Shown piece by piece: positions 29,147 to 41,010 of a stretch of 64,000 nucleotides of DNA (position 1 is the stretch's first letter; each line of letters begins with the position of its first letter). The notes under the pieces are model-generated. The model had not been told where the DNA came from, made no database searches, and saw only the letters and a list, made by a program, of their open reading frames with translations. The DNA comes from an uncultured Bdellovibrionales bacterium (GTDB lineage Bacteria > Patescibacteriota > Minisyncoccia > Moranbacterales > UBA9337). A program made the position numbers and the translations under genes. Location: positions 5,888 to 69,887 of the forward strand of contig CAZSCV010000002.1 in NCBI GenBank assembly GCA_964605525.1. Direction: 5' to 3'.

Positions 29147-29353
29147 ATGTGTTTGGCATATCCTGGGAAAATTAAAAATGTAAAAGGAAAGACCGCCGAA
29201 GTGGATTTTGGCGGTATTTTAAAAGAGGTTAATATTTCTCTGATTGATGCTAAGAGGGGGGATTATGTCATTGTTCATGCCGGATTTGCGATTGAAGTTA
29301 TGAATAAAGAGGAAGGAATTGAAAGTCAGAAATTATTTAAAGGTGGCAAATAA
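29147..29353 (+). CDS. hypC: hydrogenase maturation factor HypC/HybG
   Basis: 68 aa; N-terminal MCLAYPGKI with the essential Cys2. Confidence 0.85.
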   Translation: MCLAYPGKIKNVKGKTAEVDFGGILKEVNISLIDAKRGDYVIVHAGFAIEVMNKEEGIESQKLFKGGK

Positions 29354-29389
29354 TCATCCACGTTTAAATAAAAGATGCCGTTTTTCCAA

Positions 29390-29527
29390 GAAATAATGAA
29401 TTTTTATTTTTCCAATTGTCCCCTTTGGTTAATGTATTTTTTCTTTGTCGACACTCGGTTGGCTCGTGCGTGAAGTTTTTGTTATATACGCACAAAGACA
29501 AGAGTAAAAATAAAAATTCATTATTTC
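29390..29527 (+). repeat. 138-bp element with 22-bp perfect terminal inverted repeats (GAAATAATGAATTTTTATTTTT / AAAAATAAAAATTCATTATTTC) and an internal GC hairpin, in the hypC-hypD spacer
   Basis: Arms at 29390-29411 and 29506-29527 are exact reverse complements; inner GTGCGT..ACGCAC stem. Confidence 0.8.
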
Positions 29528-29608
29528 TCGGAAAAGAATATAAAAATTATTTAAATGTGTAAATATTCTAGTTATTTGGTTAAGTCTTATATCGTAAAGG
29601 TAAAATAA

Positions 29609-30643
29609 ATGCAGCAAGAATCGATCAAAGAAATTAAAAAATTGGCCAAGGGAATCGGGCGGGAGGTGAATTTGATGGAGGTTTGTGGGACGCATACGCA
29701 GGCGATTAGTCGGAGTGGAATTCGCGGAATTTTGCCGAAAAATATCAACTTGATTACCGGACCGGGATGTCCGGTTTGTGTTACCTCGCAAAAGGATATT
29801 GATGCGATTGTGAGTTTGGCGCTGGCGGGAATTCCAGTGGCGACTTATGGCGATATGTTGAGAGTGCCGGGAAGGTTTGGAAGTTTGAATGAGGCGCGCG
29901 AAAAAGGGGCCGCGGTTTTTGATGTTTATTCGACCGAAGACGCTTTGAAATTGCAAAAAAAACATCCGGAGTTGGTTTTTTTCGGATTGGGATTTGATAC
30001 GACGGCGCCGATGACGGCGTGGGCGATTAAAAAAGGATTAACAACATATTCTACACACAAGACTTTTCTTCCGGCAATGAAAGCTTTGCTTGAGATGGGG
30101 GAAATAAGGATAGACGGATTCATCGATCCGGGACACGTGAGCGCGATAATCGGGAGCGAGCCGTATGAAGTTCTCAATGTTGCGCAGGTGATAACCGGAT
30201 TTGAGACGCAAGATATTTTGGAAGGAATTTTGATGTTGCTGCGCCAAATAAAAGATGAGCGAAAAGATGTGGAGAATCAATATTCCAGAGTGGTGAAGAA
30301 AGAAGGAAATGAAAAAGCGCGCGGTTTGATTTTGGAAGTTTTCGAAATCGGAAACGGTGATTGGCGCGGGTTCGGAATAATTCCCGGATCGGGATTGGAA
30401 ATCAAAAATGAATTTTCAAAATATGACGCGAAGAAAAAGCACAAAAATATCCTGGATAAAATCGATTTTGAAAAATCAAAAGACCCTGCCGGGTGCGCGT
30501 GCGGCGAGGTGATTCGTGGCTTGAAAACGCCAAAAAAATGCCCGATGTTCGGAAAAAGATGCACCCCGGAAAATCCAGTCGGACCGTGTATGGTATCGGT
30601 GGAAGGCGCTTGTAATAATTTTTTCAAAGAAAACAACCAATAA
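29609..30643 (+). CDS. hypD: hydrogenase maturation factor HypD
   Basis: CGTH, GPGCPVCV and the C-terminal CxxC..CxxC (CACGEV, CPMFGKRC) HypD motifs. Confidence 0.92.
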   Translation: MQQESIKEIKKLAKGIGREVNLMEVCGTHTQAISRSGIRGILPKNINLITGPGCPVCVTSQKDIDAIVSLALAGIPVATYGDMLRVPGRFGSLNEAREKGAAVFDVYSTEDALKLQKKHPELVFFGLGFDTTAPMTAWAIKKGLTTYSTHKTFLPAMKALLEMGEIRIDGFIDPGHVSAIIGSEPYEVLNVAQVITGFETQDILEGILMLLRQIKDERKDVENQYSRVVKKEGNEKARGLILEVFEIGNGDWRGFGIIPGSGLEIKNEFSKYDAKKKHKNILDKIDFEKSKDPAGCACGEVIRGLKTPKKCPMFGKRCTPENPVGPCMVSVEGACNNFFKENNQ

Positions 30644-30648
30644 AAAAT

Positions 30649-30690
30649 AAATATTACCATATTACGAAATATGGTAATATTTTAATCTGG
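30649..30690 (+). terminator. AT-rich 15-bp perfect hairpin (AAATATTACCATATT-acgaa-AATATGGTAATATTT) plus T-rich tail, 5 nt after the hypD stop
   Basis: Exact inverted repeat followed by TTAATCTGG; marks the operon boundary before the inserted island. Confidence 0.55.
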
Positions 30691-30767
30691 AACAATGAAT
30701 TTGTCCCAAAACAAGCCAAAATATTTACATTAGGGTTCAAAAAGAGTAATATGAAATCATACATAAT

Positions 30768-31343
30768 ATGAATGAAGGAATTCGGATAGACAATATTAAA
30801 TTGCATCCTATTTTTGAAGATATAGAAAGTATCTTTTGGTTTTTTATTTTAGCAAATAATACGCTAGCTAATCCAGAGACTAGGAATATTATAAAAAAGG
30901 GAAATGATCCCGTTATAATTTCAATGCTTGAGAAATATGAAAATAATGTAGGTTTAAAAACAAAAATAAATAATAGAAATAACAGATATAATTCTAAAGC
31001 TAATATAAAAAAAGAAACGATTGTTATTGGGAAAACAATGGCTATCCTTACGTATGATTATATCTTGTTATCGGAATATTTTTCAATTCTTTCTCCGTTG
31101 GAAGAATTTAAGTTTCTAAAATTTATTAGAAATGGCGCTGCTCATTGTAATAAGTTTAACCTGAAGGACGAAAAGGGGAATTGGAAGCTTAGCGAAAGAG
31201 AGTTAATTAGTTGGAATGAAAAAAATATTGATAGAGGATTACATAAGACCACGGTTTTCAATAATTTCGTGTTTTTTGGTGATATGTTTTTGTTGGCAAA
31301 TTTTTTCTCAGAAAAAATAAAAGAATTTAATGGGTCAAAATAA
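30768..31343 (+). CDS. hypothetical protein with an Rx4H (RNGAAH) motif; possible HEPN-domain RNase
   Basis: FIRNGAAHCNKF fits the HEPN R-x4-6-H signature; otherwise no similarity recognised; AT-rich codon usage. Confidence 0.4.
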   Translation: MNEGIRIDNIKLHPIFEDIESIFWFFILANNTLANPETRNIIKKGNDPVIISMLEKYENNVGLKTKINNRNNRYNSKANIKKETIVIGKTMAILTYDYILLSEYFSILSPLEEFKFLKFIRNGAAHCNKFNLKDEKGNWKLSERELISWNEKNIDRGLHKTTVFNNFVFFGDMFLLANFFSEKIKEFNGSK

Positions 31344-31474
31344 TTTATATCCTAATATAGTGAATTTTATCAAATCCAAGGGCTATAAAATTAGATAAAA
31401 TTTTATGTTACACAGAATTTTCATAAATATTAAAAAATCCCATGGAAGTGAAAGTCTATCGAAGTCAGTTTCCT

Positions 31475-31488
31475 TGTGGATATCCACA
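31475..31488 (+). promoter_or_regulatory. 14-bp perfect palindrome TGTGGATATCCACA (operator-like dyad) 59 bp upstream of the 542-aa gene
   Basis: Exact dyad symmetry in a locally GC-richer patch of the intergenic region. Confidence 0.35.
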
Positions 31489-31546
31489 CCGTCAAGAGGC
31501 GGACTAGATCAAAAATCAACCAATCAAAATTATTTTAGCACATATT

Positions 31547-33175
31547 ATGATAAAAAATAAAACAACAGATGAACAATTTAAAAAATGGCTTGAAGAGTCC
31601 GAAGGGATGAACTTGGAATTCAAAAAAGCGGAAAACAGTTTCAGTAAAACAAAAAATCTACCTGATTACTGTGCGGCAATTGCGAATGAAGGAGGAGGAA
31701 AATTAATATTGGGCGTTGATAATAACAAGAATATGTTCGGAACTAGCGCGTTTTTGGGAACATCTGACGGATTGTCGCACTATTTGTTGCAGAATCTTGG
31801 AATTAGGGTTGATGTTGAAGAAAAAATTTACCAGGAAAAAAGAGCGATTATTTTTCATATACCTGCCCGTCCGGTCGGAAGGATCGTGAGATCGACCGGG
31901 GAATATAATTATCCAATGCGAGCGGGTAGTTCTTTGGTTGAGATGAATCAAGATAAGATCAAAGAAATATTAAATGAAACAGAGCCCGATTTTTCTTGCC
32001 AGAATGTGAAAAATTTTTCATTGGCAGATATCGACGAAGAAGCGATAGATAATTTCAAGAAAATTTGGGCAAAAAAACAAAACAAGAAAGACTATCTGAC
32101 CTTTTCAATGGAGAAAACTTTAAAATCAATTGGCGCGATGGATGACGAGGGATTAAACAATGCCGCTTTGATACTTTTTGGTAAAAAGCGAAAAATTGAT
32201 CAACTGCTTCCTTGTGCTGAAATTATATTTGAGTGGAGACAGGTATCAAAAATTCGTCATGATTTTAGGAAGGATTGGAGAGAACCGTTTTTTAAGATTT
32301 ATGATGAAATTTGGGAAGTTATTAATGCAAGAAATTTAAGATTTCCATATCACGAAGGATTTATTCAGAAGGAAGTTGTTGCATTTAATGAAGAATCTAT
32401 CAGGGAAGCCATAGCGAATGCGATTGCGCATCGGGATTATAATGTTCAATCCTCTTCTATATTTATTAAGGCAACGTCGGAAAAATTTTCCATAAAGAGT
32501 CCTGGCGGGTTCGTTAACGGAGTAAATGCGGATAATATTCTCGAGAAATCGGAGTGGAGAAACCGGAGAATTGCGGAGATATTTCAGTTGGCTGGATTAG
32601 TTGAACGTTCAGGTCAGGGAATGGATATCATATTTGGTAATACTATACAGGAAGGAAAGGGTCTGCCTGATTTTTTGGGAACTGATAATTATTCTGTTAC
32701 TTTGAATATCCCAGCTACAGTAAAAGACAAGGAGTTTATAATGTTTTTGGAAAGAATAATAAATCAAAGACAAATCGCCTTATCTTTTGAAGAAATTTTG
32801 GAGTTAGAAAAAATAAGAGAAGAGAAAAAAGTTAAGGATATTGATTTTAAGGATAAATTTATAAAGCTTGGAATTGTGGAAAAAGTGGGAAAAACAAGCG
32901 GTTCTCAATATGTTTTATCTCATCGATATTATTCATTTAAAAATAAACTAGGTTTATATACTAGAATTGTTGGAATATCACGCGATGAAAAAAAACAATT
33001 AATTTTAACGCATCTCAAAAAGAACGAGAGGGGATTTGCACGAGATCTAAAAGATGCTTTTCCTGACTTGAAACCGAAAGACGTGTCAAATTTATTGCAA
33101 GAATTAAAAAAAGAGGGAAAAATTAAGCATAAAGGATCAGATAGAGGCGGTTATTGGATTTTATTAAACAAATAA
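31547..33175 (+). CDS. Schlafen-like AlbA_2 + HATPase_c_4 (RecG C-terminal-like) + wHTH protein; putative ATP-binding DNA-binding regulator/defence protein
   Basis: N-terminal EFKKAENSF..LPDYCAAIANEGGGKLILGVD matches the AlbA_2 (divergent AAA/Schlafen core) signature; AIAHRDYNVQSSSIFIK..SPGG matches HATPase_c_4; C-terminal winged-helix-like region. Confidence 0.65.
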   Translation: MIKNKTTDEQFKKWLEESEGMNLEFKKAENSFSKTKNLPDYCAAIANEGGGKLILGVDNNKNMFGTSAFLGTSDGLSHYLLQNLGIRVDVEEKIYQEKRAIIFHIPARPVGRIVRSTGEYNYPMRAGSSLVEMNQDKIKEILNETEPDFSCQNVKNFSLADIDEEAIDNFKKIWAKKQNKKDYLTFSMEKTLKSIGAMDDEGLNNAALILFGKKRKIDQLLPCAEIIFEWRQVSKIRHDFRKDWREPFFKIYDEIWEVINARNLRFPYHEGFIQKEVVAFNEESIREAIANAIAHRDYNVQSSSIFIKATSEKFSIKSPGGFVNGVNADNILEKSEWRNRRIAEIFQLAGLVERSGQGMDIIFGNTIQEGKGLPDFLGTDNYSVTLNIPATVKDKEFIMFLERIINQRQIALSFEEILELEKIREEKKVKDIDFKDKFIKLGIVEKVGKTSGSQYVLSHRYYSFKNKLGLYTRIVGISRDEKKQLILTHLKKNERGFARDLKDAFPDLKPKDVSNLLQELKKEGKIKHKGSDRGGYWILLNK

Positions 33176-33207
33176 ATTAGATGTAATTAGATGTAATTAG
33201 ATGTAAT
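33176..33207 (+). repeat. tandem 10-mer (ATTAGATGTA)x3 immediately after the 542-aa gene stop
   Basis: Direct reading of the sequence. Confidence 0.8.
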
Positions 33208-33500
33208 TTTTTTAATAAGGCTTATTTAACGCCGATATAAAACGATTGAAGTAGCAGAAAAATAGACAATTAAAAAATATAGCATTTTTTGATTCGGTTT
33301 AATAGCTCTGGTATTGATAAATTTAGATAGTAGAAGAAAGTTTATTGTTTCCGTAGGTATAAAAAAAGAAAACCCCCTGCTTTAACGAAACGCCTTACGG
33401 TATTTCAACGCAGGAGGAATTACTTCTATGTGTTAATACTACAATAAATGCAATTTTATTGCAATATCTGATATTTTTGCTAAAATAAGCCAAAATTATT

Positions 33501-34529
33501 ATGAAAAATGAAAATATTACTTTGGATGAGGGGGGTGGGGGGTATAAATCCGGGGAGTTGATTTCCGGGATTCGGAAGATTTTAGGCGTGGCGGGGAAAA
33601 ATGGAAAGTGGAAAAATTGCGAGGATGATGGGGCGGTGTTTCCGTTTGGCAGGGAAAAATTGGTATTCACGACGGATGCGTATATCGTCGATCCGATATT
33701 TTTTCCAGGCGGAGATATCGGGAAAATCGCGATGAGCGGGACGATCAATGACCTTTCGGTGATGGGCGCGCGTCCGATCGGGATTTCGCTTAGCATCGTG
33801 ATGGAAGAAGGTTTTCCCAAAAGCGATCTGGAAAAAATAATCCGATCGATTGCGGCGGTTTCCAAAGAATCGGGCGTGCCGGTAGTAACGGGCGATACGA
33901 AAGTGACGGAAAAGGGGAAAATAGACAAGATTGAAATCACCACGGCCGGAGTTGGCTTGGCGGAAAATGTTATTTCAAATAACGGGGTAAAACCCGGGGA
34001 TTTCATCATAACCAGCGGGGATTTGGGCGAGCATGCGGTGGCGCTTTTGGCGACAAGGTTTAATTATAGGACGAGAATAAAAAGCGACAGTAAACCGCTT
34101 AATAAGGAAATTGAAAAAGTCGGAAAGTGGCTCAATGCTTGCAAGGATCCGACGCGCGGAGGGTTGGCGGCGATATTGAATGAAGTGGCGGAAAAATCCC
34201 GCGTGAAAATTATTCTTGACGAGGAAACTTTGCCGTACAAAAAAGAGGTGGTGGCGGTGACGGAGCTTTTGGGCTTGGATATTTTTTCGCTGGCAAGTGA
34301 AGGAAGATTTGTAGCTAGTGTTTTGCCGGAAAATGTGGAGAAAGTTTTAAAAGTTTTAAGGATTTTTAACAAAGAAGCGAAAATTATCGGAAGGGCGGAA
34401 AATGGGAAGAAAAAAGGGAAAAATGGGGAAGAAAAAAGGGGAAAACCTGGCGTTTATTTGAAAACTAATCTCGGAAGTCTGCGTCCGATCGAAATGCCAA
34501 AAGGGAAGTTAGTGCCGAGGATTTGCTAG
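33501..34529 (+). CDS. hypE: hydrogenase maturation factor HypE
   Basis: AIR-synthase-related fold; DAYIVDPIFFPGGDIGKIAMSGTINDLSVMGARP and conserved C-terminal PRIC. Confidence 0.92.
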   Translation: MKNENITLDEGGGGYKSGELISGIRKILGVAGKNGKWKNCEDDGAVFPFGREKLVFTTDAYIVDPIFFPGGDIGKIAMSGTINDLSVMGARPIGISLSIVMEEGFPKSDLEKIIRSIAAVSKESGVPVVTGDTKVTEKGKIDKIEITTAGVGLAENVISNNGVKPGDFIITSGDLGEHAVALLATRFNYRTRIKSDSKPLNKEIEKVGKWLNACKDPTRGGLAAILNEVAEKSRVKIILDEETLPYKKEVVAVTELLGLDIFSLASEGRFVASVLPENVEKVLKVLRIFNKEAKIIGRAENGKKKGKNGEEKRGKPGVYLKTNLGSLRPIEMPKGKLVPRIC

Positions 34530-34602
34530 GTATTATTTTTAGTGCTAGTATTTTTTTAGTTGTTTCTGTGGGCTAAAAAATACAAAATAGAGGAGGTATC
34601 AA

Positions 34603-34875
34603 ATGTATTTTAATTGGGTTGATTTCGTAGCTCTTTGGTTGGGTAGGGGCATTATTTATGCGTCTTTGGCAGTTTTTATATATTTATCTCTGTATTGGGC
34701 GTATATTGATTTTTTTCGAAAAAGACCATATTGTCCGAAATGTGGTTCGCGAAAATTGGCGACGGTCTGTGGAAATTCTTCAGGAGGTTATAGGTGTGCG
34801 GATTGTAGCACGCATTATTGGTGGGTGGGTGGATTGTGGCGGAGAGGAAAAAGCACACTTCAAAAACCCAAGTAA
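34603..34875 (+). CDS. small membrane protein with a C-terminal zinc-ribbon (CPKCG..CADC)
   Basis: Strong SD GAGGAGGT 8 nt upstream; 2 predicted TM helices; C4 motif; its 3' end overlaps the hypF-like gene, which runs convergently. Confidence 0.5.
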   Translation: MYFNWVDFVALWLGRGIIYASLAVFIYLSLYWAYIDFFRKRPYCPKCGSRKLATVCGNSSGGYRCADCSTHYWWVGGLWRRGKSTLQKPK

Positions 34876-36224
34876 TAAACAATTTGCCCAAAACTTAATC
34901 CTGCGTCGCCTCGGGGGATGGCCGGTGTTTCCGAAATGGAGATGCCGGCTTTTTTATTTTGTTTGGAGAAATATTGCGAGATTATTTTGTTATTGGAAAT
35001 TCCGCCAGAGAGGATGATGGGTGGCAGTTTGGAGGATTTCTGGATTCCCGCCTCCGCGGGAATGACAAGAGAGTGTTTTTTTATGATTTCATGGAGTCCT
35101 TGCGCAATGTAAAGCTGGGCGGTGGCGGCGAGGCGTTTTTTGTCTTTGTTTATGTTTTTAATCAGGTATTCGAATAAAAAAGTTGTATTTAAAATTGAAT
35201 TGTTTTTTATAATATTGATTTTCGGTTTTAGATCCGTGTATGGCGCGGAAGAATTAATTTCCAATAGATATGTTGCCTGATGTTTTGATTTTCTTTCATT
35301 TTTGCAAAAACCCAAAAGCAATGACACGGCATCCAAAATCCTGCCAGTGCTGGAAGTTTCTATACAGTTGAAATTTTGCTCAAGTTGGTTATATAAAAGT
35401 TCAAACTGATTTCGCGAGTAATATTTTTTAACGAAGTGAAATATGAAATCTTTTTTGTTTTTAAATTTATAAATTTTGTCATTGTTTGAAAATTTAAAAT
35501 TGAAAATTGAAAATTTATCCAAAATTGATATCAGTATTCTCGCCGGTTCCCGAATCGCCAACTCCCCGCCAATCATTATTTGATTTTCAAGATGCCCGAT
35601 CCTTTCAATTCGCATTTTTTGTTTGAAAATTTTGTCATTTGAATTTGAAAATTGTTTGGAAATTGCCAGCCCTAGGCTGGTCCGCCTTGGGCGGAAAAAT
35701 TGGAAATTGGAAATTGCGAAGCATTCTCCTCCCCAAATTTTCCCATCAGTGCCATATCCCGTGCCATCGAGAGCGATGCCATAAAATAAATTTGGAATTT
35801 GAACATTGGAATTTGAAAATTGTTTGGAAATTGCCAGCCCTAGGCTGGTCCGCCTTGGGCGGAAAAATTGGAAATTGGAAATTATCATATTTTTTCCCAG
35901 CTGGGAAAAAATATGAGCTATGTGGTGCTGGACTTGGATGTGTTTCGCTTTGTATTTTTTGGAAAGCTCGATTCCCAGTCGCGTGGTTTTGAAATCCGGA
36001 TGCAGGTCGGTGAGAATGACATCCGGTTTTATTTTCTTATTTTTTAAATATTTATTTAACTCTGTTTCGTATTTAGTGAAATTCACTTCTTTCAGAAGGT
36101 CGCCGAAATTTTGGGAGAAATGAATAATCCCATTTTTGAAAATTGAAAAATTCCCTGCAGATTCTGCGCCGAGGGCGAGGATGGTTTTTTTTGATCGGAT
36201 GTTCGGAACGCTGAATGTTTGCAT
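34860..36224 (-). CDS. hypF: HypF-like carbamoyltransferase, Kae1/YgjD-like C-terminal domain only (lacks the acylphosphatase, Zn-finger and YrdC domains)
   Basis: ILALGAESAGNFSIFKNGIIHFSQNFGDL, HPDFKTT, GIALDGTGYGTDGKIWGGE, LSGGISNN and C-terminal PRGDAGLSFGQ all match the HypF C-terminal domain; no room for the N-terminal domains before the next gene. Confidence 0.7.
   Translation of the reverse strand: MQTFSVPNIRSKKTILALGAESAGNFSIFKNGIIHFSQNFGDLLKEVNFTKYETELNKYLKNKKIKPDVILTDLHPDFKTTRLGIELSKKYKAKHIQVQHHIAHIFSQLGKNMIISNFQFFRPRRTSLGLAISKQFSNSNVQIPNLFYGIALDGTGYGTDGKIWGGECFAISNFQFFRPRRTSLGLAISKQFSNSNDKIFKQKMRIERIGHLENQIMIGGELAIREPARILISILDKFSIFNFKFSNNDKIYKFKNKKDFIFHFVKKYYSRNQFELLYNQLEQNFNCIETSSTGRILDAVSLLLGFCKNERKSKHQATYLLEINSSAPYTDLKPKINIIKNNSILNTTFLFEYLIKNINKDKKRLAATAQLYIAQGLHEIIKKHSLVIPAEAGIQKSSKLPPIILSGGISNNKIISQYFSKQNKKAGISISETPAIPRGDAGLSFGQIVYYLGF
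35641..35883. repeat. two identical 75-bp GC-rich palindrome-containing repeats (35641-35715 and 35809-35883) inserted in-frame within the hypF-like CDS
   Basis: Identical 75-nt copies spaced 168 bp apart; each carries CCAGCC-cta-GGCTGG and CCGCC-ttg-GGCGG hairpins; they encode the duplicated peptide ISNFQFFRPRRTSLGLAISKQFSNS flanking the conserved DGTGYG..WGGE motif. Confidence 0.85.
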
Positions 36225-36514
36225 AAGTTTGCGGAGGTCAAATCTCCATATTTTGGATATTTTAAGTATATCAGTATTTTTTCCAATTTAAAAAGCCCTC
36301 AATTCAAGACGGCTCATGAATCCCGTTTAAGATAATATCGGAAAAAAATAAATTTTTTCCCTGGTAATCCAGGTGGGTTTCAACGTTTTTACCGCCTATC
36401 CTGAAGGCTTTGTTTTTAGTATACTGCAATTTTTGAAAAATTGCCACAAAAATTTACTTGTTGCTCGTTTTGCGTTAGAATGTAAGAGTAATTTCTGAAA
36501 AACAAAAAATAATA

Positions 36515-37249
36515 ATGAATAAGGCTAATTTGATATTTTTAGATACAGAGACGACAGGAAACGACTCGGAAGCGCGTCTTTGCCAAGTAGCATATAAATT
36601 TGGTGGTAAAGAGGTTGAAGGTTTTTTCAAGCCCCCGATTCCAATTTCCATTGAAGCGATGTCTATTTCACATATTACCAATAAAATGGTTGAAGACAAA
36701 GAATCTTTTTTCGATTCAAAAATGAAAAAAGATTTGGAAAGGATTTTTTCTGAGGGAAATATTCTAGTGGCTCACAATGCGGATTTTGATTCAAATATAC
36801 TTAAAAATGACGGGGTAATTATTGGAAAGAAAATTGATACTGTAAAAATTGCCCAGTATTTGGATGAGAAAGGGGATATTCCGCGATACAGCTTGCAATA
36901 TTTGCGGTATTATTTCGATATTGATCTTGATCCAAAAAATGCTCCGGCGCACAATGCATTGGGGGATATCCGCGTTTTGGAAAAACTTTTTGATTACCTT
37001 TTTGAAAAGATGGAGGAAAATCTCATTAGTGAAGAAGAAGTTTTGGAAAAAATGTTGGAGATTTCCGCTTTGCCGGTTTTGATGAAAAAATTTGGGTTCG
37101 GAAAATATAAAGGGGAAAAAGTGGAGGATGTTTTCCAGAGAGATCCGGGATATTTGAAGTGGCTTTGGGAGCAAAAGAAAAAAGCCCAACAGCAAGGAGA
37201 GGAAAATGATGAAAATTGGATTTATACCTTGGAATATTATTTGAGTTGA
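36515..37249 (+). CDS. DnaQ-like 3'-5' exonuclease (DEDDh family) with a C-terminal extension
   Basis: Exo I LIFLDTETTG, Exo II VAHNADFD, Exo III HNALGDIRV. Confidence 0.75.
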   Translation: MNKANLIFLDTETTGNDSEARLCQVAYKFGGKEVEGFFKPPIPISIEAMSISHITNKMVEDKESFFDSKMKKDLERIFSEGNILVAHNADFDSNILKNDGVIIGKKIDTVKIAQYLDEKGDIPRYSLQYLRYYFDIDLDPKNAPAHNALGDIRVLEKLFDYLFEKMEENLISEEEVLEKMLEISALPVLMKKFGFGKYKGEKVEDVFQRDPGYLKWLWEQKKKAQQQGEENDENWIYTLEYYLS

Positions 37250-37300
37250 TTTTTTTTGTCTCTTGTAATATGTCGTGGAATAAATAATAAAGCACTTGAA

Positions 37301-37876
37301 ATGAAAAAAACAAAAGCATTCACACTTATTGAACTTTTAATTGTTATTGCAATAATTGGAATTTTAGCAAGCGTGGTTCTGGTTAGTTTAAATAGCGCAA
37401 GGAAAAAGGCCAGGGAGGCGAAATATATCAGTTATGTTTCCCAGATGACGGGGGCGGTAAGATCTGCTATTCAGGCTGGATATTTTGACGGTATAAATAA
37501 TAATCAATCCGGGTGTTTGGGGGATTATAGCGGGGGTGGCAGTTGCTTTGGATCATTAAATAATAATGTTGTTATAAATAATGCATTGCAACAGATAGTA
37601 TCAAATATTCCTATTGGAGAGCGTCCACCTAATACACCCGACAGTTTCGGAGTTTATATGTCGGTTGTTACGAATGATGCTTTTAATCCCAATATTAATT
37701 ATGCCTGGGTTGGAGCTGTTATTGGGAATGACAGTTCCAGTGAAGATATATGTGAAAAATTCGGATGGGGGACAAAGGGAAATATGGGCAATGTCGATGA
37801 AGATGGTTTTTACGTTGTATATGAGCAATTAGGAATATCTGTTTGTATGGACTGGATTTTTATTAAAAATAAATAA
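37301..37876 (+). CDS. type IV pilin / pseudopilin-like protein
   Basis: Class III signal peptide and N-methylation motif KAFTLIELLIVIAIIGILASVVL; start set at ATG 37301. Confidence 0.85.
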   Translation: MKKTKAFTLIELLIVIAIIGILASVVLVSLNSARKKAREAKYISYVSQMTGAVRSAIQAGYFDGINNNQSGCLGDYSGGGSCFGSLNNNVVINNALQQIVSNIPIGERPPNTPDSFGVYMSVVTNDAFNPNINYAWVGAVIGNDSSSEDICEKFGWGTKGNMGNVDEDGFYVVYEQLGISVCMDWIFIKNK

Positions 37877-37932
37877 TTTTTTTGTTTTTTTTCTGAAATA
37901 TGTTAAAATGAAAATGTTATAAAAATAAAAAT

Positions 37933-38478
37933 ATGAAAAATAAAAAAGCGTTTACGTTGATTGAACTTTTGATCGTAATTGCGATCATTGGAATTTTGGC
38001 AAGTGTTGTGCTGGTGAGTTTGAATAGTGCACGACAGAAAACAAGAGATGGTGCGGTTCTAAAAATGATGCGAGGGGTTTCTGCTTCAGCTACTTTATGT
38101 TTGCAAGAAAGATCAACAACTATCACTCGAATAAATTATCCAACGAACGCGAATAGCAAGATAATCTGCAGAGATCAAGCTACGGGCGTTTATTTGCCCA
38201 CATATTCGGATTGGCCGTATAGTGGAGATCTGGATGGTAACGGAACATATGATCTTATAGATAAATATAGTTGGCGTTATTATTATTGGTGCACTCCGGG
38301 GTATTCCGGGACAACTGATCCTGGTAGTTGCGGCGGATATGCTAATGGAACTTGCGGGGGTAATTATGCCACGGGAGAGTTCTGTTACGCGGTTTATTCC
38401 GGCGGAGCGAATACTGCAGCTAATCATGCAAAGGCTGTATGGTGTACAGAAAAAGGATGTGGAAAATCTGGATTTTAG
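37933..38478 (+). CDS. type IV pilin / pseudopilin-like protein (second copy, Cys-rich C-terminus)
   Basis: KAFTLIELLIVIAIIGILASVVLVSLNSAR prepilin N-terminus; 10 Cys in the C-terminal half. Confidence 0.85.
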   Translation: MKNKKAFTLIELLIVIAIIGILASVVLVSLNSARQKTRDGAVLKMMRGVSASATLCLQERSTTITRINYPTNANSKIICRDQATGVYLPTYSDWPYSGDLDGNGTYDLIDKYSWRYYYWCTPGYSGTTDPGSCGGYANGTCGGNYATGEFCYAVYSGGANTAANHAKAVWCTEKGCGKSGF

Positions 38479-38491
38479 ACTTTATAATAAT

Positions 38492-39244
38492 ATGCAGAAA
38501 CAAAAAATTGCTATTGTCAGTCTGACTTCCTGCGAGGGTTGCCAGTTTGCTCTTTTGGATTTGGGGCAACGGTTTTTGGATTTGATGAACCAGGTGGAAA
38601 TGGTGGATTTCCGCCTTTTGGAGGATGAAGAAGATGCGGGAGGAAAATTGGATATCGGAATTGTGGAGGGAAATCCAACTACCAAAGAGAATGTTGAAAC
38701 GCTCAAAAAGCTTCGAAAACGGAGCAAGCTTTTGGTGGTTTTGGGGAATTGTGCAGCGATGGGAGGAGTGCCGGAAATTAAAAACTATCAAGAGCAAAAA
38801 AATACTATTAAGCATGTATACAAATACATTCAAGGAATCGAAAATCCGGAAATTAAAGAGGTGGATAATTTCGTGAAAGTTGATTTTGTTTTTCCCGGAT
38901 GTCCGATTAATGGAGAGGAATTTGTAAAATATTTTCCAGAGCTTTTGAACGGTGAAATTCCGACAATTCCCGATCAGCCGGTATGCGTGGAATGCAAAAA
39001 AAGAGGAAACAGATGCTTGCTTTTGGATAAGAAACCTTGTTTTGGACCAATGATTCAGGGAGGGTGCGATGCGGTTTGTCCAAGTTCGCGAATGATGTGC
39101 CAGGGTTGTCGCGGACTTCGTCCAACTGGAAACGTGAAAGCAATGCGAGCAACACTCAAAAATTTTATGACTGATGAAGAATTTGAAAATACAACGGAGA
39201 TTTTCGGACTCAGAGATGATATAGAAGATAGAGGAGGGAAATAA
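38492..39244 (+). CDS. [NiFe] hydrogenase small subunit (group 3-type, MvhG/HoxY/HydD-like) with a C-terminal Cys-rich FeS region
   Basis: IAIVSLTSCEGCQFALLD proximal-cluster motif; C-terminal CVECKK..CFGPMIQGGCDAVCPSS..CQGC; start set at ATG 38492 (TATAAT 5 nt upstream). Confidence 0.8.
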   Translation: MQKQKIAIVSLTSCEGCQFALLDLGQRFLDLMNQVEMVDFRLLEDEEDAGGKLDIGIVEGNPTTKENVETLKKLRKRSKLLVVLGNCAAMGGVPEIKNYQEQKNTIKHVYKYIQGIENPEIKEVDNFVKVDFVFPGCPINGEEFVKYFPELLNGEIPTIPDQPVCVECKKRGNRCLLLDKKPCFGPMIQGGCDAVCPSSRMMCQGCRGLRPTGNVKAMRATLKNFMTDEEFENTTEIFGLRDDIEDRGGK

Positions 39245-39286
39245 GACAAATCAGGCACATAAGACTTATTGGACATATAAAAAATT

Positions 39287-40549
39287 ATGCAAATAAAACT
39301 GAATCATATAAATAAAATTGAGGGACATGCTGGGTTTATGGCGAGTGTTCTTAATGGAGATGTGAAGTCGGCAAAGATTGAAGTAAAAGAGGGGATTCGC
39401 TTGATTGAAGGAATTTTGATTGGACGGCATTATGCCGATATGCCGGTGGTGGCGCAAAGAATTTGTGGGATATGCCCAGTAGTGCATAATCTCACCTCAA
39501 TCAAATCAATCGAGAACGCTATGGGGGTGAAAGTTTCACAGGAAACAATCAATTTGCGAAAGGCTTTGGAATGGGGGCAAATTATCCATTCTCATTCGCT
39601 CCATCTTTTCTTTTTGTCGTTGGCTGATTTTTTGGATATTGATAATGATTTGAAATTAGTGGAAAAGTATCCTGAGGAAACTCAAAAGGCGATTGCGCTT
39701 CGAGAATATGGGATGGCGATTGTGAAAATAATCGGCGGGCGCGTGGTGCATCCGCTTACCAATGAAGTTGGAGGTTTCAAAAAAGTTCCTCGATTGGAAG
39801 AAATTCAGGCTTTAATAAAACAAGGAGAGGCTACGCTTTTGACGGCATTTGAAGTGGCGGAATTTTTCAAAGGAATAAAATTGCCAAAATTTGAAAGAGA
39901 AACTGAATATGTTTGCTTGGACGCGCGTGGTGAGTATGCGATTTATGACGGAGATTTGGTTTCCAATCGCGGACTCAATGTTCCAGTTTTGGAATTTGAA
40001 AAGAATTTTCATGAAGTTCAACGTCCAAGGGAAATTATCAAAAGAGTGGAGTCGGACGGAAAAACCAGTTATATGGTCGGCGCAATTGCGAGAATAAATA
40101 ATCATCACAAAAAACTTCATTCCAAAGCCACACAATATCTTGATTCGCTCGGATTTTCTTTTCCGGATTACAACCCATTTCACAATGTTTTGTATCAAAT
40201 GGTGGAGGTTATCCATGGAATTGAAGAGTCGTTGCGGATTTTGCACATTTTAGCTAACAGTAATTTGGAAAATGCTATCACGAAAGAGTATCAGGTGCGA
40301 GAGGGGTTTGGAGTTGCCGCTGTGGAAGCGCCGCGCGGAACGCTTTATTATCATGTTGATATCGATAGTAAGGGTTATATCAAAGACGTGAATATTATCT
40401 CTCCGACAGCTCAATTTTTGAGTCATCTGGAAGATGATGTCAGGAAATATTTGCCGGAAATTTTAAATATTTCAGATAAGGATAAAGAAAAAAAAATGCG
40501 CGCTTTTATACGGGCATATGACCCGTGTATAAGTTGCGCAGTACATTAA
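39287..40549 (+). CDS. [NiFe] hydrogenase large (catalytic) subunit
   Basis: N-terminal RICGICPVVH (RxCGxCxxxH) and C-terminal DPCISCAVH (DPCxxCxxH) Ni-Fe ligand motifs. Confidence 0.9.
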   Translation: MQIKLNHINKIEGHAGFMASVLNGDVKSAKIEVKEGIRLIEGILIGRHYADMPVVAQRICGICPVVHNLTSIKSIENAMGVKVSQETINLRKALEWGQIIHSHSLHLFFLSLADFLDIDNDLKLVEKYPEETQKAIALREYGMAIVKIIGGRVVHPLTNEVGGFKKVPRLEEIQALIKQGEATLLTAFEVAEFFKGIKLPKFERETEYVCLDARGEYAIYDGDLVSNRGLNVPVLEFEKNFHEVQRPREIIKRVESDGKTSYMVGAIARINNHHKKLHSKATQYLDSLGFSFPDYNPFHNVLYQMVEVIHGIEESLRILHILANSNLENAITKEYQVREGFGVAAVEAPRGTLYYHVDIDSKGYIKDVNIISPTAQFLSHLEDDVRKYLPEILNISDKDKEKKMRAFIRAYDPCISCAVH

Positions 40550-40553
40550 ATTT

Positions 40554-40829
40554 ATGCATGATTTTTTGCTTGCTAAGGAGATAGTTGATGAGGTTTTGAA
40601 AATTGCCGAGGAAAAAAAATTGAAAAAAGTTTCTCGAGTCGATGTCGAGATTGGTCAGATTGCGATGGCGCACGACGGACACGATGAGCATATTGAAGAT
40701 ATTTCGATTGAAAATTTGAAGTTTGGATTGGAAGGAATTTCGAGAAATACCATTTTGAAGGATGCGGAATTTGGTATAAAAAAAATTGAAGGCGAACATT
40801 GGAAAATTGTTTTAATTGAAGGGGAATAG
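40554..40829 (+). CDS. hypA: HypA-like hydrogenase nickel-insertion protein lacking the zinc-finger cysteines
   Basis: Starts MHD (the Ni-binding His2 of HypA is normally MHE); N-terminal alignment to HypA is good, but the 91-aa product has no Cys. Confidence 0.5.
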   Translation: MHDFLLAKEIVDEVLKIAEEKKLKKVSRVDVEIGQIAMAHDGHDEHIEDISIENLKFGLEGISRNTILKDAEFGIKKIEGEHWKIVLIEGE

Positions 40830-40857
40830 GGTGTTTTTTTAATTGATTATTATAAAT

Positions 40858-40998
40858 AGGACTTACGCATTTAGATAATTTTCGTATGGTTTTCCGGAAA
40901 AATATTTTTTTCTCCGGTCCTTTCGAGGGACACGGACAGCTGCGAAAAAAACATTTTTCCGGGAAACCGAGAGTTTTGTTATCTAATTACGCAAGTCT
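40858..40998 (+). repeat. ~140-bp nested imperfect palindrome upstream of gap (outer arms 40858-40878 / 40979-40998; inner arms 40888-40905 / 40952-40968)
   Basis: Outer arms match at 16 of 20 positions; inner GGTTTTCCGGAAAAATA / CATTTTTCCGGGAAACC are near-exact reverse complements. Confidence 0.6.
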
Positions 40999-41010
40999 TA
41001 AATAAAAAAT

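What the first reader, a model, noticed from the sequence alone, without database searches (positions are those of the whole stretch)
30649..33500. Two-gene AT-rich island splitting the hyp operon: HEPN-like (Rx4H) protein plus Schlafen-like AlbA_2/HATPase_c_4/wHTH protein; candidate defence/abortive-infection module
hypC-hypD and hypE are separated by 2.8 kb holding two genes unrelated to hydrogenase maturation. The first encodes a 191-aa protein whose only recognisable feature is RNGAAH, fitting the HEPN RNase R-x4-6-H motif. The second encodes a 542-aa protein with an N-terminal AlbA_2 (Schlafen-core) domain, a HATPase_c_4 (RecG-C-like) domain and a C-terminal wHTH. The island is bounded by a perfect hairpin terminator right after hypD and a (ATTAGATGTA)x3 repeat. 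It looks more AT-rich than its neighbours and has a 14-bp perfect palindrome (TGTGGATATCCACA) upstream of gene 2 that could be an autoregulatory operator. Schlafen-like/AlbA_2 ATPases recur in prokaryotic defence islands, and HEPN RNases are common abortive-infection effectors. I am not aware of this pairing being described as a system.
Basis: inference. Interest (0 to 1): 0.75.

Follow-up and report, generated by a model that had tools for sequence, protein, structure and literature searches.

The report
Two orphan defence RNase genes
A small AT-rich insert between two hydrogenase-maturation genes of a Parcubacteria genome carries two predicted RNA-cutting defence genes, a Schlafen-type nuclease of a described class and an unannotated HEPN-like protein; each usually sits inside restriction-modification operons, and the two are not a conserved pair.

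Summary
hypD and hypE are separated by a 2.86-kb AT-rich insert with two co-directional genes, a strong hairpin after hypD, a 14-bp palindrome and an (ATTAGATGTA)x3 repeat.

Gene 2 (542 aa) is a known kind: Schlafen nuclease plus GHKL ATPase plus C-terminal wHTH ("Schlatpase-HTH", pSlfn HisKinase-HTH). Its Ex4ExK and ExxxN motifs are invariant.

In 19 of 40 other distinct loci, gene-1 homologues lie in or beside R-M operons, typically type III Mod-gene1-Res. None has a gene-2-type neighbour. Two have a different Schlafen-domain protein adjacent.

Close gene-2 homologues occur alone, once between type III Mod and Res and otherwise inside housekeeping operons. They carry the same 10-bp repeat at their stop codon.

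Verdict: an orphan mini defence islet of two "backup RNase" genes, not a new two-gene system. Interest is moderate to low.

The parts
29609..30643 (+). hypD, the left flank of the insert (context).
   Evidence: Pfam HypD, E = 1e-126. GC 0.450.
30649..30682 (+). Perfect 15-bp-arm hairpin just after the hypD stop codon. It is probably a terminator or stabiliser of hypD, but the stem is AT-rich and there is no canonical T-tract.
   Evidence: -14.4 kcal/mol, z = -4.8. (4 such hairpins in the window against 0.07 expected). The terminator scan does not call it.
30724..30752 (+). Promoter-like site (TTTACA-17-TAATAT, 9 of 12 matches) 16 nt upstream of the gene 1 start. This is a weak consensus match only.
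   Evidence: The number of such sites in the region is not above the shuffle expectation.
30768..31343 (+). Gene 1: a 191-aa stand-alone HEPN-like protein and a predicted metal-independent RNase. It belongs to an unannotated family found mostly in Patescibacteria.
31128..31145 (+). Codons for R121-N-G-A-A-H126, the putative HEPN Rx4H active-site motif.
   Evidence: R121 and H126 are the only invariant columns in the 33-member divergent alignment A2. N122 and N128 are nearly invariant. The motif lies at the C-terminal end of helix 112-125, as described for HEPN helix 3 (PMC3710099).
31389..31404 (+). AATTAGATAAAATTTT, about 158 nt upstream of gene 2. It is a -10-like element (TAGATAAAAT) and a copy of the core of the downstream repeat. 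It is the candidate promoter of gene 2.
   Evidence: Repeat family D10. A matching AATTAGATATAAT lies at -153 in L065. This is an inference.
31475..31488 (+). The 14-bp perfect palindrome TGTGGATATCCACA in the gene 2 leader. It is not distinguishable from chance and is not conserved.
   Evidence: 10 such palindromes in the window against 5.1 +/- 2.4 expected.
31547..33175 (+). Gene 2: a 542-aa prokaryotic Schlafen nuclease with a GHKL ATPase and two C-terminal wHTH units (Schlatpase-HTH, pSlfn HisKinase-HTH class).
   Evidence: Pfam. PHROG 12156, E = 2e-37. The PADLOC pAgo model matches the N-terminal region. PDB chain 3lmm_A at 1.9e-25 and mammalian SLFN11/12/13/14 at 1e-5 to 3e-3. AF2 model. 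More than 2,500 homologues.
31601..31624 (+). Codons for E19-x4-E24-x-K26, the Schlafen catalytic motif Ex4(E/D)xK.
   Evidence: These residues are invariant in 57 homologues. The motif is defined in 10.1101/2025.07.24.666596, and the E17/D22/K24 triad of CbCash is described in PMC13462974.
32390..32698 (+). GHKL (HATPase_c_4) region. It includes the N-box E287-x3-N291 (REAIANAIAHRDY) and the SPGG loop.
   Evidence: Pfam PF13749. E287, N291, H295, R296, P319 and G320 are invariant. The correspondence to RzAgo E314/N318 rests on motif spacing only and is an inference.
32729..33166 (+). Two tandem winged-helix units, residues about 395-457 and 479-540.
   Evidence: Secondary structure of the AF2 model, helix-helix-helix-strand-strand repeated twice. 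Sub-threshold Pfam matches to DsrD and SelB-wing.
33175..33208 (+). (AATTAGATGT)x3.4 tandem repeat with a 10-bp period. It starts at the stop codon of gene 2 and is followed by a T-run. The element is conserved and travels with gene 2.
   Evidence: The same arrangement is found at the stop codon of gene 2 homologues in unrelated genomic sites: L068 (AAATTAGATG x3) and L067 (a degenerate x3).
33321..33340 (+). Distal copy ATTTAGATAGTAGAAG, 146 nt after the stop codon. It is the counterpart of TAGTAGAAATTAGATG at +80 in L067 and L068.
33459..33486 (+). Promoter-like site (TTGCAA-16-TAAAAT, with an extended TG) upstream of hypE. It could restore hypE expression downstream of the insert.
   Evidence: This is a consensus match only.
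33501..34529 (+). hypE, the right flank of the insert (context).
   Evidence: Pfam AIRS and AIRS_C. GC 0.462.

Best explanation
The 2.86-kb AT-rich stretch between hypD and hypE is a small, horizontally acquired defence islet. It carries two separate single-gene modules, and each encodes a predicted suicide or backup RNase.

Gene 2 is a prokaryotic Schlafen of the common Schlafen-GHKL-wHTH architecture. By analogy with characterised relatives, ATP binding to the GHKL domain would drive oligomerisation. That would assemble the Ex4ExK nuclease sites, which cut tRNA and stop translation in an infected cell. The wHTH units would act as the nucleic-acid sensor or autoregulator.

Gene 1 is a stand-alone HEPN-like protein. 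Its invariant R-N-x3-H would form a metal-independent RNase site.

Elsewhere both families sit mostly as accessory genes inside DNA-targeting defence operons, especially between the Mod and Res genes of type III R-M systems. There they are thought to be held latent and released when the primary system fails (PrrC-type logic). Here both are orphaned, with no R-M, BREX or mobility gene within 10 kb. They lie next to each other because defence genes accrete in the same permissive spots, not because they form an obligate pair.

Shown here: the domain identities, motif conservation, genomic contexts and compositional anomaly. Inferred: RNase activity, tRNA as target, the ATP switch, latency, the trigger and defence itself.
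For: Gene 2:
- The Pfam SLFN_AlbA_2 and HATPase_c_4 matches are above their cut-offs.
- E19, E24, K26 and E287, N291 are invariant in 57 homologues. The motifs match the published Ex4(E/D)xK and GHKL residues.
- The profile hits mammalian SLFN nuclease domains and PDB chain 3lmm.
- This exact architecture is described as 19.2% of prokaryotic Schlafens, as the 'Schlatpase' supradomain with a C-terminal HTH, and as a backup effector in BREX and R-M loci alongside HEPN.

Gene 1:
- R121 and H126 are the only invariant columns, and N follows R.
- The model has pLDDT 93.5, with the motif at the end of a helix. This matches the HEPN description.
- Weak hits to PF18736 in 5 of 33 members, and one each to Abi_2 and HEPN_Cthe2314. 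hhalign aligns the motif helix to PF18736 at E = 0.0037.

Context:
- 19 of 40 distinct gene-1 loci have R-M parts within 3 genes. Five of these are type III Mod-gene1-Res, in places with overlapping start and stop codons.
- The closest gene 2 homologue (81% identity) lies between type III Mod and Res.

Independence of the two genes:
- No gene-2-type protein occurs in any gene-1 locus. Gene 1 occurs in none of the gene-2 loci.
- Gene 2 carries its own conserved flanking repeats, and these exclude gene 1.

Foreign origin: the GC values.

Orphan status: the annotated +/-10 kb shows only housekeeping, hyp, hydrogenase and pilin genes.
Against: - A second conserved acidic residue (Ex3[KR]) is not evident.
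- Gene 1 is directly adjacent to a Schlafen-domain protein in three independent architectures: the window, the L050 group and L043. This hints at more than random co-location (P about 0.05 for the two non-ascertained cases).
- No activity, trigger or phenotype is known for either gene in this lineage. About 30% of prokaryotic Schlafens are not near any defence gene.
- The host is an uncultured Parcubacteria organism, so defence cannot be assumed.
Confidence: 0.6

Rival explanations
1. This is a dedicated two-gene HEPN-Schlafen system. The two proteins would work together, for example with one sensing and the other executing, or with one restraining the other. The pair would be the unit of selection.
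For: - The genes are adjacent and co-directional in the window.
- Gene 1 homologues are directly adjacent, on the same strand, to other catalytically intact SLFN_AlbA_2 proteins in two further independent loci. In the L050 group (Moranbacteria) gene 1 is followed by a 349-aa SLFN protein after an 81-bp gap. In L043 a DndB-SLFN fusion is followed by gene 1 after a 60-bp gap.
- Both of the only 2 AlbA_2 ORFs among 309 neighbour ORFs are immediately adjacent (P about 0.05).
- HEPN-Schlafen fusions exist in the MAE_18760 HEPN family (PMC3710099).
Against: - 0 of 40 other gene-1 loci carry a gene-2-type (Schlafen-GHKL-wHTH) protein.
- 0 of 4 loci of close gene 2 homologues (70-81% identity) carry gene 1.
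- The three Schlafen partners have three different architectures, and gene order is not fixed.
- The dominant partner of gene 1 is an R-M system (19 of 40 loci).
- The conserved flanking repeats of gene 2 and its putative promoter lie between the two genes, which marks gene 2 as its own unit.
- Both families are R-M satellites, so occasional adjacency is expected without functional coupling.
Confidence: 0.12
2. Gene 2 is a DNA-binding transcriptional regulator, as it is annotated in GenBank. Gene 1 is an unrelated protein of unknown, non-nuclease function, and the RNxxxH motif is structural. The insert would have nothing to do with defence.
For: - GenBank names gene 2 'transcriptional regulator'.
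- It has two wHTH units and conserved DNA repeats next to it that could be operators.
- Close homologues sit within housekeeping operons: scpA|scpB, rmlC|rmlB-like and yqeY|ybeY.
- About 30% of prokaryotic Schlafens are not near defence genes.
- Gene 1 has no significant match to any characterised family.
Against: - The nuclease triad and the ATPase N-box of gene 2 are invariant in all 57 aligned homologues. That is not expected for a pure DNA binder.
- Relatives with the same supradomain cleave tRNA and protect against phage.
- In the gene 1 family, R and H are the only invariant residues over deep divergence. This is the signature of catalysis, not of fold maintenance.
- Nearly half of the gene-1 loci are R-M operons.
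Confidence: 0.12
3. This is a toxin-antitoxin or addiction module. Gene 1 (a HEPN toxin) would be neutralised or transcriptionally repressed by gene 2 through its wHTH, or the reverse. The module would stabilise the insert rather than defend against phage.
For: - One gene 1 homologue follows a MazE-family antitoxin gene (L007).
- Another is followed by a small HTH_24 protein (L004/L005).
- Gene 2 has DNA-binding domains.
Against: - No MNT nucleotidyltransferase or other recurrent small antitoxin accompanies the family.
- Gene 1 usually overlaps the MTase and Res genes, not an antitoxin.
- Gene 2 is a 542-aa enzyme and is itself a predicted toxin. It occurs alone in 4 of 4 close loci.
- The pair is not conserved.
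Confidence: 0.06
4. Gene 1 is a non-catalytic accessory subunit of R-M enzymes, for example an assembly or control factor for type III, type ISP or type I complexes. In this window it would be a functionless relic of a lost R-M system.
For: - In five type III operons gene 1 lies between Mod and Res, and in the L001-L003 group its start and stop codons overlap those of Mod and Res. This suggests translational coupling and complex formation.
- Gene 1 is also linked to type ISP MTases, HsdS and EcoRI-like MTases.
- The window has no R-M partner.
Against: - The family serves at least four mechanistically different R-M types. That fits a generic piggy-backing effector better than a dedicated subunit.
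- The window copy is full-length with every invariant residue intact. That argues against a decaying relic.
- The invariant R/N/H pattern is catalytic in all studied HEPN enzymes.
Confidence: 0.1

Closest known systems
Prokaryotic Schlafen proteins of the HisKinase-HTH class, also called the 'Schlatpase' (Schlafen-GHKL) supradomain with a C-terminal HTH. Sources: Taboada et al. 2025 bioRxiv 10.1101/2025.07.24.666596; Kuzmenko et al. 2026 bioRxiv 10.64898/2026.05.29.728809; NAR 2026 PMC12839542.
   Same: Gene 2 has the same three-part architecture. Both Pfam domains score above their cut-offs. The Ex4ExK nuclease motif and the GHKL ExxxN motif are invariant. Its closest homologue has the same linkage to R-M. 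The family is spread horizontally across phyla at about 60% identity.
   Different: - No stand-alone member of this exact class is reported as biochemically characterised in the passages I read. The mechanism is transferred from SLFN-pAgo, Cash and Ig-like-Slfn proteins.
- Here the gene is orphaned inside a hyp cluster of a Parcubacteria genome.
- It carries a conserved 10-bp triple repeat at its stop codon. I did not see that repeat mentioned in the parts of those papers I searched.
R-M-linked stand-alone HEPN clades, such as pEK499_p136-like (PF18736), ApeA, AbiJ and HEPN-T solos (Anantharaman et al. 2013, PMC3710099).
   Same: - Gene 1 is a small protein with an invariant R-[N]-x3-H motif.
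- The motif lies at the end of a helix, followed by a beta-hairpin and a C-terminal helix. In the PF18736 protein the motif likewise sits about two-thirds of the way along the sequence.
- The gene is embedded in R-M operons next to RhuM/Fic, HNH and similar genes.
   Different: - No significant sequence or profile match to any of these families. The best PF18736 score is 15.8 bits against 26.6, and hhalign aligns only the 17-column motif.
- The N-terminal half is family-specific.
- The named members of the family are all Patescibacteria or Saccharibacteria metagenome bins.
PrrC anticodon nuclease within the EcoprrI type Ic R-M locus. This comparison rests on established knowledge and is discussed in PMC3710099.
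   Same: The genomic logic is the same. A HEPN RNase gene is inserted between the modification and restriction genes of an R-M operon. It is presumed latent and released when the R-M system is attacked. This is the pattern of the gene 1 family in type III loci.
   Different: - PrrC has an N-terminal ABC-type ATPase, and gene 1 is a single domain.
- In this window there is no R-M system at all.
- No activator analogous to the T4 Stp peptide is known for gene 1.
HEPN-MNT type VII toxin-antitoxin systems (PDB 5yep, 7ae2, 8xdj).
   Different: No MNT partner gene accompanies gene 1 in any of the 40 loci. Gene 1 is about 50-60 residues longer, with beta inserts.

Membership tests
HEPN superfamily (gene 1) | A conserved Rx4-6H motif, typically with a polar residue (N, D or H) immediately after R. 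| tested here: met
   RNGAAH is present. R121 and H126 are the only invariant columns in the 33-member divergent alignment. N122 is conserved in at least 90% of members. The definition comes from PMC3710099.
HEPN superfamily (gene 1) | A four-helix up-and-down bundle with the motif at the end of helix 3, at the start of the loop to helix 4. Inserts are tolerated. | tested here: inconclusive
HEPN superfamily (gene 1) | A statistically significant sequence or profile link to an established HEPN family. | tested here: inconclusive
   5 of 33 members hit PF18736 (best E = 0.001), one hits Abi_2 (0.022) and one hits HEPN_Cthe2314 (0.041). All are below the gathering scores. hhalign against a PF18736 alignment gives E = 0.0037, 17 columns and probability 9%.
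HEPN superfamily (gene 1) | Metal-independent endoribonuclease activity that depends on R and H. | not testable with these tools
   This needs biochemistry.
Pfam PF18736 (HEPN pEK499_p136) | A score at or above the gathering threshold of 26.6 bits. | tested here: not met
   The window protein gives no hit. The best family member scores 15.8 bits over profile positions 70-116 of 152. Gene 1 is therefore not filed as a member.
Prokaryotic Schlafen nuclease (gene 2) | A SLFN_AlbA_2 domain carrying the catalytic motif Ex4(E/D)xK. | tested here: met
   PF04326 scores 39.2 bits against 25.3. E19, E24 and K26 are invariant in 57 sequences. The profile hits the SLFN11/12/13/14 nuclease domains.
Schlatpase / pSlfn HisKinase-HTH class (gene 2) | A GHKL ATPase domain (PF13749) follows the Schlafen domain, with a conserved ATP and Mg-binding N-box. 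| tested here: met
   PF13749 scores 42.4 bits against 26. E287-x3-N291 is invariant. The PADLOC pAgo model aligns residues 44-347 to the N-terminal part of SLFN-pAgo-type proteins. The equivalence to RzAgo E314/N318 is by motif only.
Schlatpase / pSlfn HisKinase-HTH class (gene 2) | A C-terminal helix-turn-helix domain. | tested here: met
   The AF2 model has two helix-helix-helix-strand-strand units at 395-457 and 479-540. Pfam wHTH matches are sub-threshold.
Schlatpase / pSlfn HisKinase-HTH class (gene 2) | tRNA cleavage and phage protection. | not testable with these tools
   This is transferred from relatives.
   0 of 40 distinct gene-1 loci hold a gene-2-type protein, by tblastn and by a family HMM. 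0 of 4 close gene-2 loci hold gene 1. Only a looser link exists: in 2 of 40 gene-1 loci a different SLFN_AlbA_2 protein is adjacent.
R-M-embedded backup RNase (PrrC-like logic) | The gene lies inside or directly beside an R-M operon. | tested here: not met
   The feature is met for the gene 1 family (19 of 40 loci) and for the closest gene 2 homologue. It is not met in this window, where no MTase, REase, BREX or mobility gene lies within +/-10 kb.
HEPN-MNT toxin-antitoxin | An adjacent minimal nucleotidyltransferase antitoxin gene. | tested here: not met
   No MNT appears among the annotated neighbours of 40 loci.

The most novel reading that the evidence does not exclude
In Patescibacteria, the gene-1-type HEPN-like protein is a genuine functional partner of Schlafen-domain nucleases. 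Together they would form a two-RNase module in which one protein gates or complements the other. The module would be assembled repeatedly with different Schlafen architectures: Schlafen-GHKL-wHTH here, a 349-aa Schlafen in Moranbacteria, and a DndB-Schlafen fusion in L043. Separately, the 10-bp AATTAGATG triple repeat that travels with gene 2 would be the DNA ligand of its wHTH domains, controlling expression or activation.
Probability: 0.12. Interest if true: 0.55.

Novelty: new member of a known kind. Interest (0 to 1): 0.36.

Why it matters
- Gene 1 defines a small protein family with no model in Pfam, PADLOC, NCBIfam or PHROGs. It is recurrently embedded in type III, type ISP, type I and EcoRI-like R-M operons of Patescibacteria. 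If it is an RNase, it adds another clade to the R-M-linked HEPN 'second line' effectors, and current defence-finders would miss it.
- Gene 2 shows that the abundant but still uncharacterised stand-alone Schlafen-GHKL-wHTH class is present in ultra-small CPR genomes. There it turns up as a solitary insert inside conserved operons (hypD|hypE, scpA|scpB, rmlC|rmlB-like) and takes a conserved 10-bp triple repeat with it. That repeat is a concrete, testable candidate for the DNA site recognised by the wHTH domains, whose role in this class is open.
- None of this overturns current views. It extends known themes to a poorly studied lineage.

Tried and rejected
- Rfam on 29-35 kb gave nothing relevant.
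- Foldseek of the gene 1 model against PDB and BFVD found no match with E <= 0.001. The afdb50 library was not available.
- PDB profile searches with the gene 1 alignments A1 and A2 returned only chance-level hits.
- tblastn of gene 1 against the plasmid and phage collections found no match.
- Gene 2 against viral contigs gave no relatives. Against plasmids it gave only 26%-identical Acidovorax proteins next to HsdS.
- I tested whether the two small ORFs (103 and 91 aa) upstream of the 81%-identical gene 2 homologue in L068 are a split gene 1. They are not.
- I tested whether the type III systems that host the closest gene 1 and gene 2 homologues are the same system. Their Mod proteins are only about 32% identical over 231 residues, so they are different systems.
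- Palindrome as operator: rejected as unsupported, since it occurs at chance frequency and is not conserved.
- Direct repeats flanking the island as target-site duplications: the best pair (30699-30727 and 33473-33501, 79% identity over 29 nt) is no better than many other AT-rich pairs in the region, so it was not pursued.
- The stretch 33340-33440 shows no significant RNA structure (z = -1.25).
- The triple repeat occurs exactly once in IMG/VR, on a contig from a giant-virus bin that has no gene 2. The bare repeat can therefore arise independently, and its link to gene 2 rests on position, not on uniqueness.
- The 51-aa ORF at 31405-31560 overlapping the gene 2 start has no conserved counterpart in the other loci and contains the palindrome. 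I treated it as spurious.

Full report
**Source and layout**

Gene 1 is 100% identical to a protein named 'Athens071425_26' of 'Parcubacteria group bacterium Athens0714_25'. All of the following genes lie on the + strand:
- hypC, 29147-29353
- hypD, 29609-30643
- gene 1, 30768-31343 (191 aa)
- gene 2, 31547-33175 (542 aa)
- hypE, 33501-34529

A hypF that contains only the C-terminal Kae1-like domains lies on the - strand.

An annotated copy of the same locus shows the wider neighbourhood:
- upstream: secY, map, ruvX, tpi and fba
- the hyp genes and the insert
- downstream: an ExoX-like exonuclease, two pilin-like genes, the small and large subunits of a NiFe hydrogenase, hypA and gap

No methyltransferase, restriction enzyme, BREX component, integrase or transposase lies within +/-10 kb.

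**Observation check**

- The hairpin after hypD (30649-30682) has 15-nt perfect arms. Its energy is -14.4 kcal/mol with z = -4.8. Such perfect hairpins occur 4 times in the window against 0.07 expected.
- The hairpin stem is AT-rich, and the terminator scan does not call it.
- The repeat (AATTAGATGT)x3.4 lies at 33175-33208.
- The palindrome TGTGGATATCCACA (31475-31488) is one of ten perfect 14-bp palindromes in the window, against 5.1 +/- 2.4 expected. It is absent from all related loci. It carries no weight.
- The insert is compositionally foreign. Its GC is 0.312 against 0.381 for the window. Gene 1 (0.273) is the lowest of 56 ORFs, about 3.5 sd below the mean. hypD and hypE are the two highest.

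**Gene 2**

Pfam finds SLFN_AlbA_2 and HATPase_c_4 above their cut-offs. PHROG 12156 matches at 2e-37. PADLOC's pAgo and Aga models match the N-terminal 350 residues.

The family is very large, with more than 2,500 hits. It is about 60% identical across CPR, Deltaproteobacteria, Planctomycetes, Elusimicrobia and Spirochaetota, which indicates horizontal spread.

In a 57-sequence alignment the following are invariant:
- E19-x4-E24-x-K26
- E287-x3-N291, within REAIANAIAHRDY

The first is the Schlafen catalytic motif Ex4(E/D)xK (10.1101/2025.07.24.666596) and corresponds to the E17/D22/K24 triad of CbCash (PMC13462974). The second has the spacing of the GHKL residues E314/N318 that bind Mg-ATP in RzAgo (10.64898/2026.05.29.728809). 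This equivalence is inferred from the motif, not from an alignment to RzAgo.

A family profile hits PDB chain 3lmm_A at 1.9e-25 and the nuclease domains of SLFN12, 14, 11 and 13 at 1e-5 to 3e-3. The AF2 model (pLDDT 83.6) ends in two winged-helix units.

This architecture has been described several times:
- HisKinase-HTH fusions make up 19.2% of 5,930 prokaryotic Schlafens.
- The Schlafen-GHKL 'Schlatpase' supradomain occurs in 58.6% of 103,533 Schlafen proteins, mostly small proteins with a C-terminal HTH.
- Schlafen plus a minimal histidine kinase plus wHTH is catalogued as a backup suicidal effector in BREX and related loci of at least 1,017 taxa, alongside HEPN and PIN RNases (PMC12839542).

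Gene 2 is therefore a member of a known kind, and it is not merely a transcription factor.

**Gene 1**

Gene 1 has no hit in any of the four profile libraries. Homologues are few: 46 clusters in the 90% library and 49 representatives in the 50% library. All are about 190-200 aa and stand-alone. Those that carry a source name are Patescibacteria or Saccharibacteria bins.

In the close alignment, R121, N122, G123, A124, H126, N128, F130 and N131 are invariant. In the divergent alignment, which goes down to about 22% identity, only R121 and H126 remain invariant. N122 and N128 are conserved in at least 90% of members.

The AF2 model is confident (pLDDT 93.5, pTM 0.87). It is a helical bundle with two small beta elements. 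RNGAAH closes helix 112-125 and is followed by a beta region and a long C-terminal helix. This matches the published description that the Rx4-6H motif sits at the end of helix 3, that the residue after R is usually N, D or H, and that inserts are frequent (PMC3710099).

The sequence links are all weak:
- 5 of 33 members hit PF18736 (HEPN pEK499_p136), best E = 0.001, 15.8 bits against a cut-off of 26.6.
- There is one hit each to Abi_2 and to HEPN_Cthe2314.
- hhalign against an alignment built from the pEK499 protein itself aligns only the 17-column motif helix (E = 0.0037, probability 9%).
- Foldseek finds nothing.

I conclude that gene 1 is HEPN-like at superfamily level with about 0.7 confidence. 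It is not a member of any named family.

**Where gene 1 lives**

I collected 63 loci, which reduce to 40 distinct ones. Recurrent neighbours were annotated.

R-M components lie within three genes in 19 of the 40 loci:
- Type III Mod-gene1-Res in five loci (L046 group, L008, L016, L019, L055). In the L001-L003 group the start and stop codons overlap those of Mod and Res. In L008, the closest homologue at 74% identity, the downstream gene is a Res helicase.
- A type ISP methyltransferase immediately upstream in L017, L044 and L062, and two genes upstream in L039 and L058.
- HsdS immediately downstream in L025, L029, L033 and L058.
- An EcoRI-like methylase upstream together with a RhuM/Fic protein downstream in L027, L018 and L026. 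In L056 the same methylase lies two genes upstream.
- HNH, GmrSD-HNH or LexA-methylase neighbours in L056, L030 and L004.

The other loci sit in mobile or defence-type surroundings (resolvase, HigB, AlwI, AbiEii, MazE, DUF2726, a AAA_15 ATPase) or are uninformative. This is the classic context of R-M-linked HEPN clades. At least 16 such clades are listed in PMC3710099.

**Is the pair a system?**

tblastn and a family HMM for gene 2 find nothing in any gene-1 locus. A gene 1 HMM finds nothing in the loci of four close gene 2 homologues. Those four homologues sit in different places:
- P0097 (81% identity) lies between a type III Mod and Res, preceded by two small unrelated ORFs.
- P0104 lies between scpA and scpB.
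- P0105 lies between rmlC and an rmlB-like epimerase.
- P0100 lies between yqeY and ybeY.

There is one qualification. A domain-level HMM and Pfam show a different Schlafen-domain protein immediately beside gene 1 in two independent loci:
- a 349-aa Schlafen protein downstream of gene 1 in the Moranbacteria L050 group, in a small Fic / gene 1 / Schlafen islet next to miaA and miaB
- a DndB-Schlafen fusion upstream of gene 1 in L043

Both carry an intact Ex4ExK motif. These are the only two AlbA_2 ORFs among 309 neighbour ORFs, and both are adjacent (P about 0.05).

Both families are R-M satellites, so some adjacency is expected without coupling. I rate a true functional partnership at about 0.12.

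**A cis element that travels with gene 2**

The triple repeat is not an island boundary. In L068 the stop codon of the homologue is followed by AAATTAGATG x3 and a T-run. In L067 it is followed by a degenerate triple (AACTAGATGTA, AATTAGATATA, AGTAGATGTA). Both have a further copy at +80, preceded by TAGTAGAA. The window has ATTTAGATAGTAGAAG at +146. L065 has instead a different 22-nt direct repeat, whose first copy also overlaps the stop codon.

At 70-81% protein identity, and in unrelated genomic sites, neutral flanks should not be alignable. The element is therefore probably functional.

An AATTAGATA copy also lies at -158 in the window and at -153 in L065. There it reads as a -10 box (TAGATAAAAT and TAGATATAAT), so it is likely the promoter of gene 2. 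In the window it falls between genes 1 and 2, which again marks gene 2 as its own unit.

The 10-bp period suggests a protein-binding array for the wHTH units. This is an inference.

One caution applies. The exact triple repeat occurs once in IMG/VR, on a contig from a giant-virus bin that has no gene 2.

**Mechanism (best-supported reading, 0.6)**

The insert holds two independent latent RNase modules.
- Gene 2: the ATP-bound GHKL domain drives oligomerisation, which assembles Schlafen active sites that cut tRNA. The wHTH units sense nucleic acid or autoregulate through the flanking repeats. These steps are transferred from RzAgo, Cash and RorSlfn5.
- Gene 1: a dimeric HEPN RNase that uses R121, N122 and H126. 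In its usual setting it is held in check by an R-M complex, as PrrC is.
- In this genome both genes are orphaned.

Shown here: identities, motifs, contexts and composition. Inferred: all activities, the trigger, and defence itself.

**Novelty and score**

Gene 2 is already known as a class. Gene 1 is a new, unannotated family of a known kind (R-M-linked stand-alone HEPN-like proteins). The pairing is not a system.

Three points are worth recording:
- the gene 1 family and its R-M embedding in Patescibacteria
- the repeat associated with gene 2
- the habit of gene 2 homologues of sitting alone inside conserved operons

Interest is 0.36.

Noticed in passing
window 33175-33208 and 33321-33340; L068 4951-4980 and 5036; L067 5746-5775 and 5820; L065 about 8640-8740: The 10-bp AATTAGATG triple repeat begins at the stop codon of gene 2 homologues that sit at unrelated genomic sites, and a further copy lies 80-146 nt downstream next to TAGTAGAA. 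Within each locus the three units share the same variant base (T in the window, A in L068), which suggests concerted evolution. L065 has a different 22-nt direct repeat in the same position.
   Followed up: partly
L065 7001-8647 (scpA|scpB), L067 4112-5740 (rmlC|rmlB-like), the locus of P0100 (yqeY|ybeY), window 31547-33175 (hypD|hypE): Close homologues of gene 2 (68-81% identity) occur as solitary, co-directional inserts that split conserved housekeeping operons. No integrase or transposase is nearby. The means of mobility is unknown.
   Followed up: partly
window 35628-35715 and 35796-35883 (inside the hypF ORF 34860-36224, - strand): Two copies of an 88-nt element, 95% identical and 168 bp apart, each contain two GC-rich palindromes (GCCAGCCCTAGGCTGG and TCCGCCTTGGGCGGA). 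They lie in frame within hypF and give the duplicated peptide FQFFRPRRTSLGLAISKQFSNSN. The element occurs nowhere else in the window. It looks like a small MITE-like or REP-like insertion that the ORF tolerates.
   Followed up: partly
window 34860-36224 (-): The hypF ORF is 454 aa and matches only the C-terminal Kae1-like domains (HypF_C, HypF_C_2). No match was found to any N-terminal domain. From general knowledge, full-length HypF proteins also carry acylphosphatase, zinc-finger and YrdC-like parts. The gene may be a truncated or split hypF.
   Followed up: no
window 29147-41000: The hyp and hydrogenase cluster is broken up by more than this insert. Its order is hypC, hypD, [gene 1, gene 2], hypE, hypF on the opposite strand, an ExoX-like exonuclease, two type IV pilin-like genes, the small and large subunits of a NiFe hydrogenase, then hypA. 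hypD and hypE have the highest GC of the 56 ORFs in the window, so the hyp genes themselves may be acquired.
   Followed up: no
L068 2698-3290: In the type III R-M operon that hosts the closest gene 2 homologue, two small ORFs sit between Mod and the Schlafen gene. One is a 103-aa protein that looks membrane-spanning from its sequence (weak DUF308 match). The other is 91 aa, begins MKTYLISYDL and has no Pfam hit. They are further unannotated cargo in the Mod-Res slot.
   Followed up: partly
L039 7590-8630; L026 3387-3932; L004/L005 downstream genes: Other effectors sit immediately beside gene 1 homologues within R-M-type islands: a RelA/SpoT-domain protein, a NYN-domain RNase, and an HTH_24 protein followed by a AAA_15/AAA_21 ATPase.
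   Followed up: no
L070 1626-1654 (IMG/VR contig from a giant-virus bin): The only exact match to the triple AATTAGATG repeat in 2.9 million viral contigs follows a 165-aa ORF and has no gene 2 relative nearby.
   Followed up: partly
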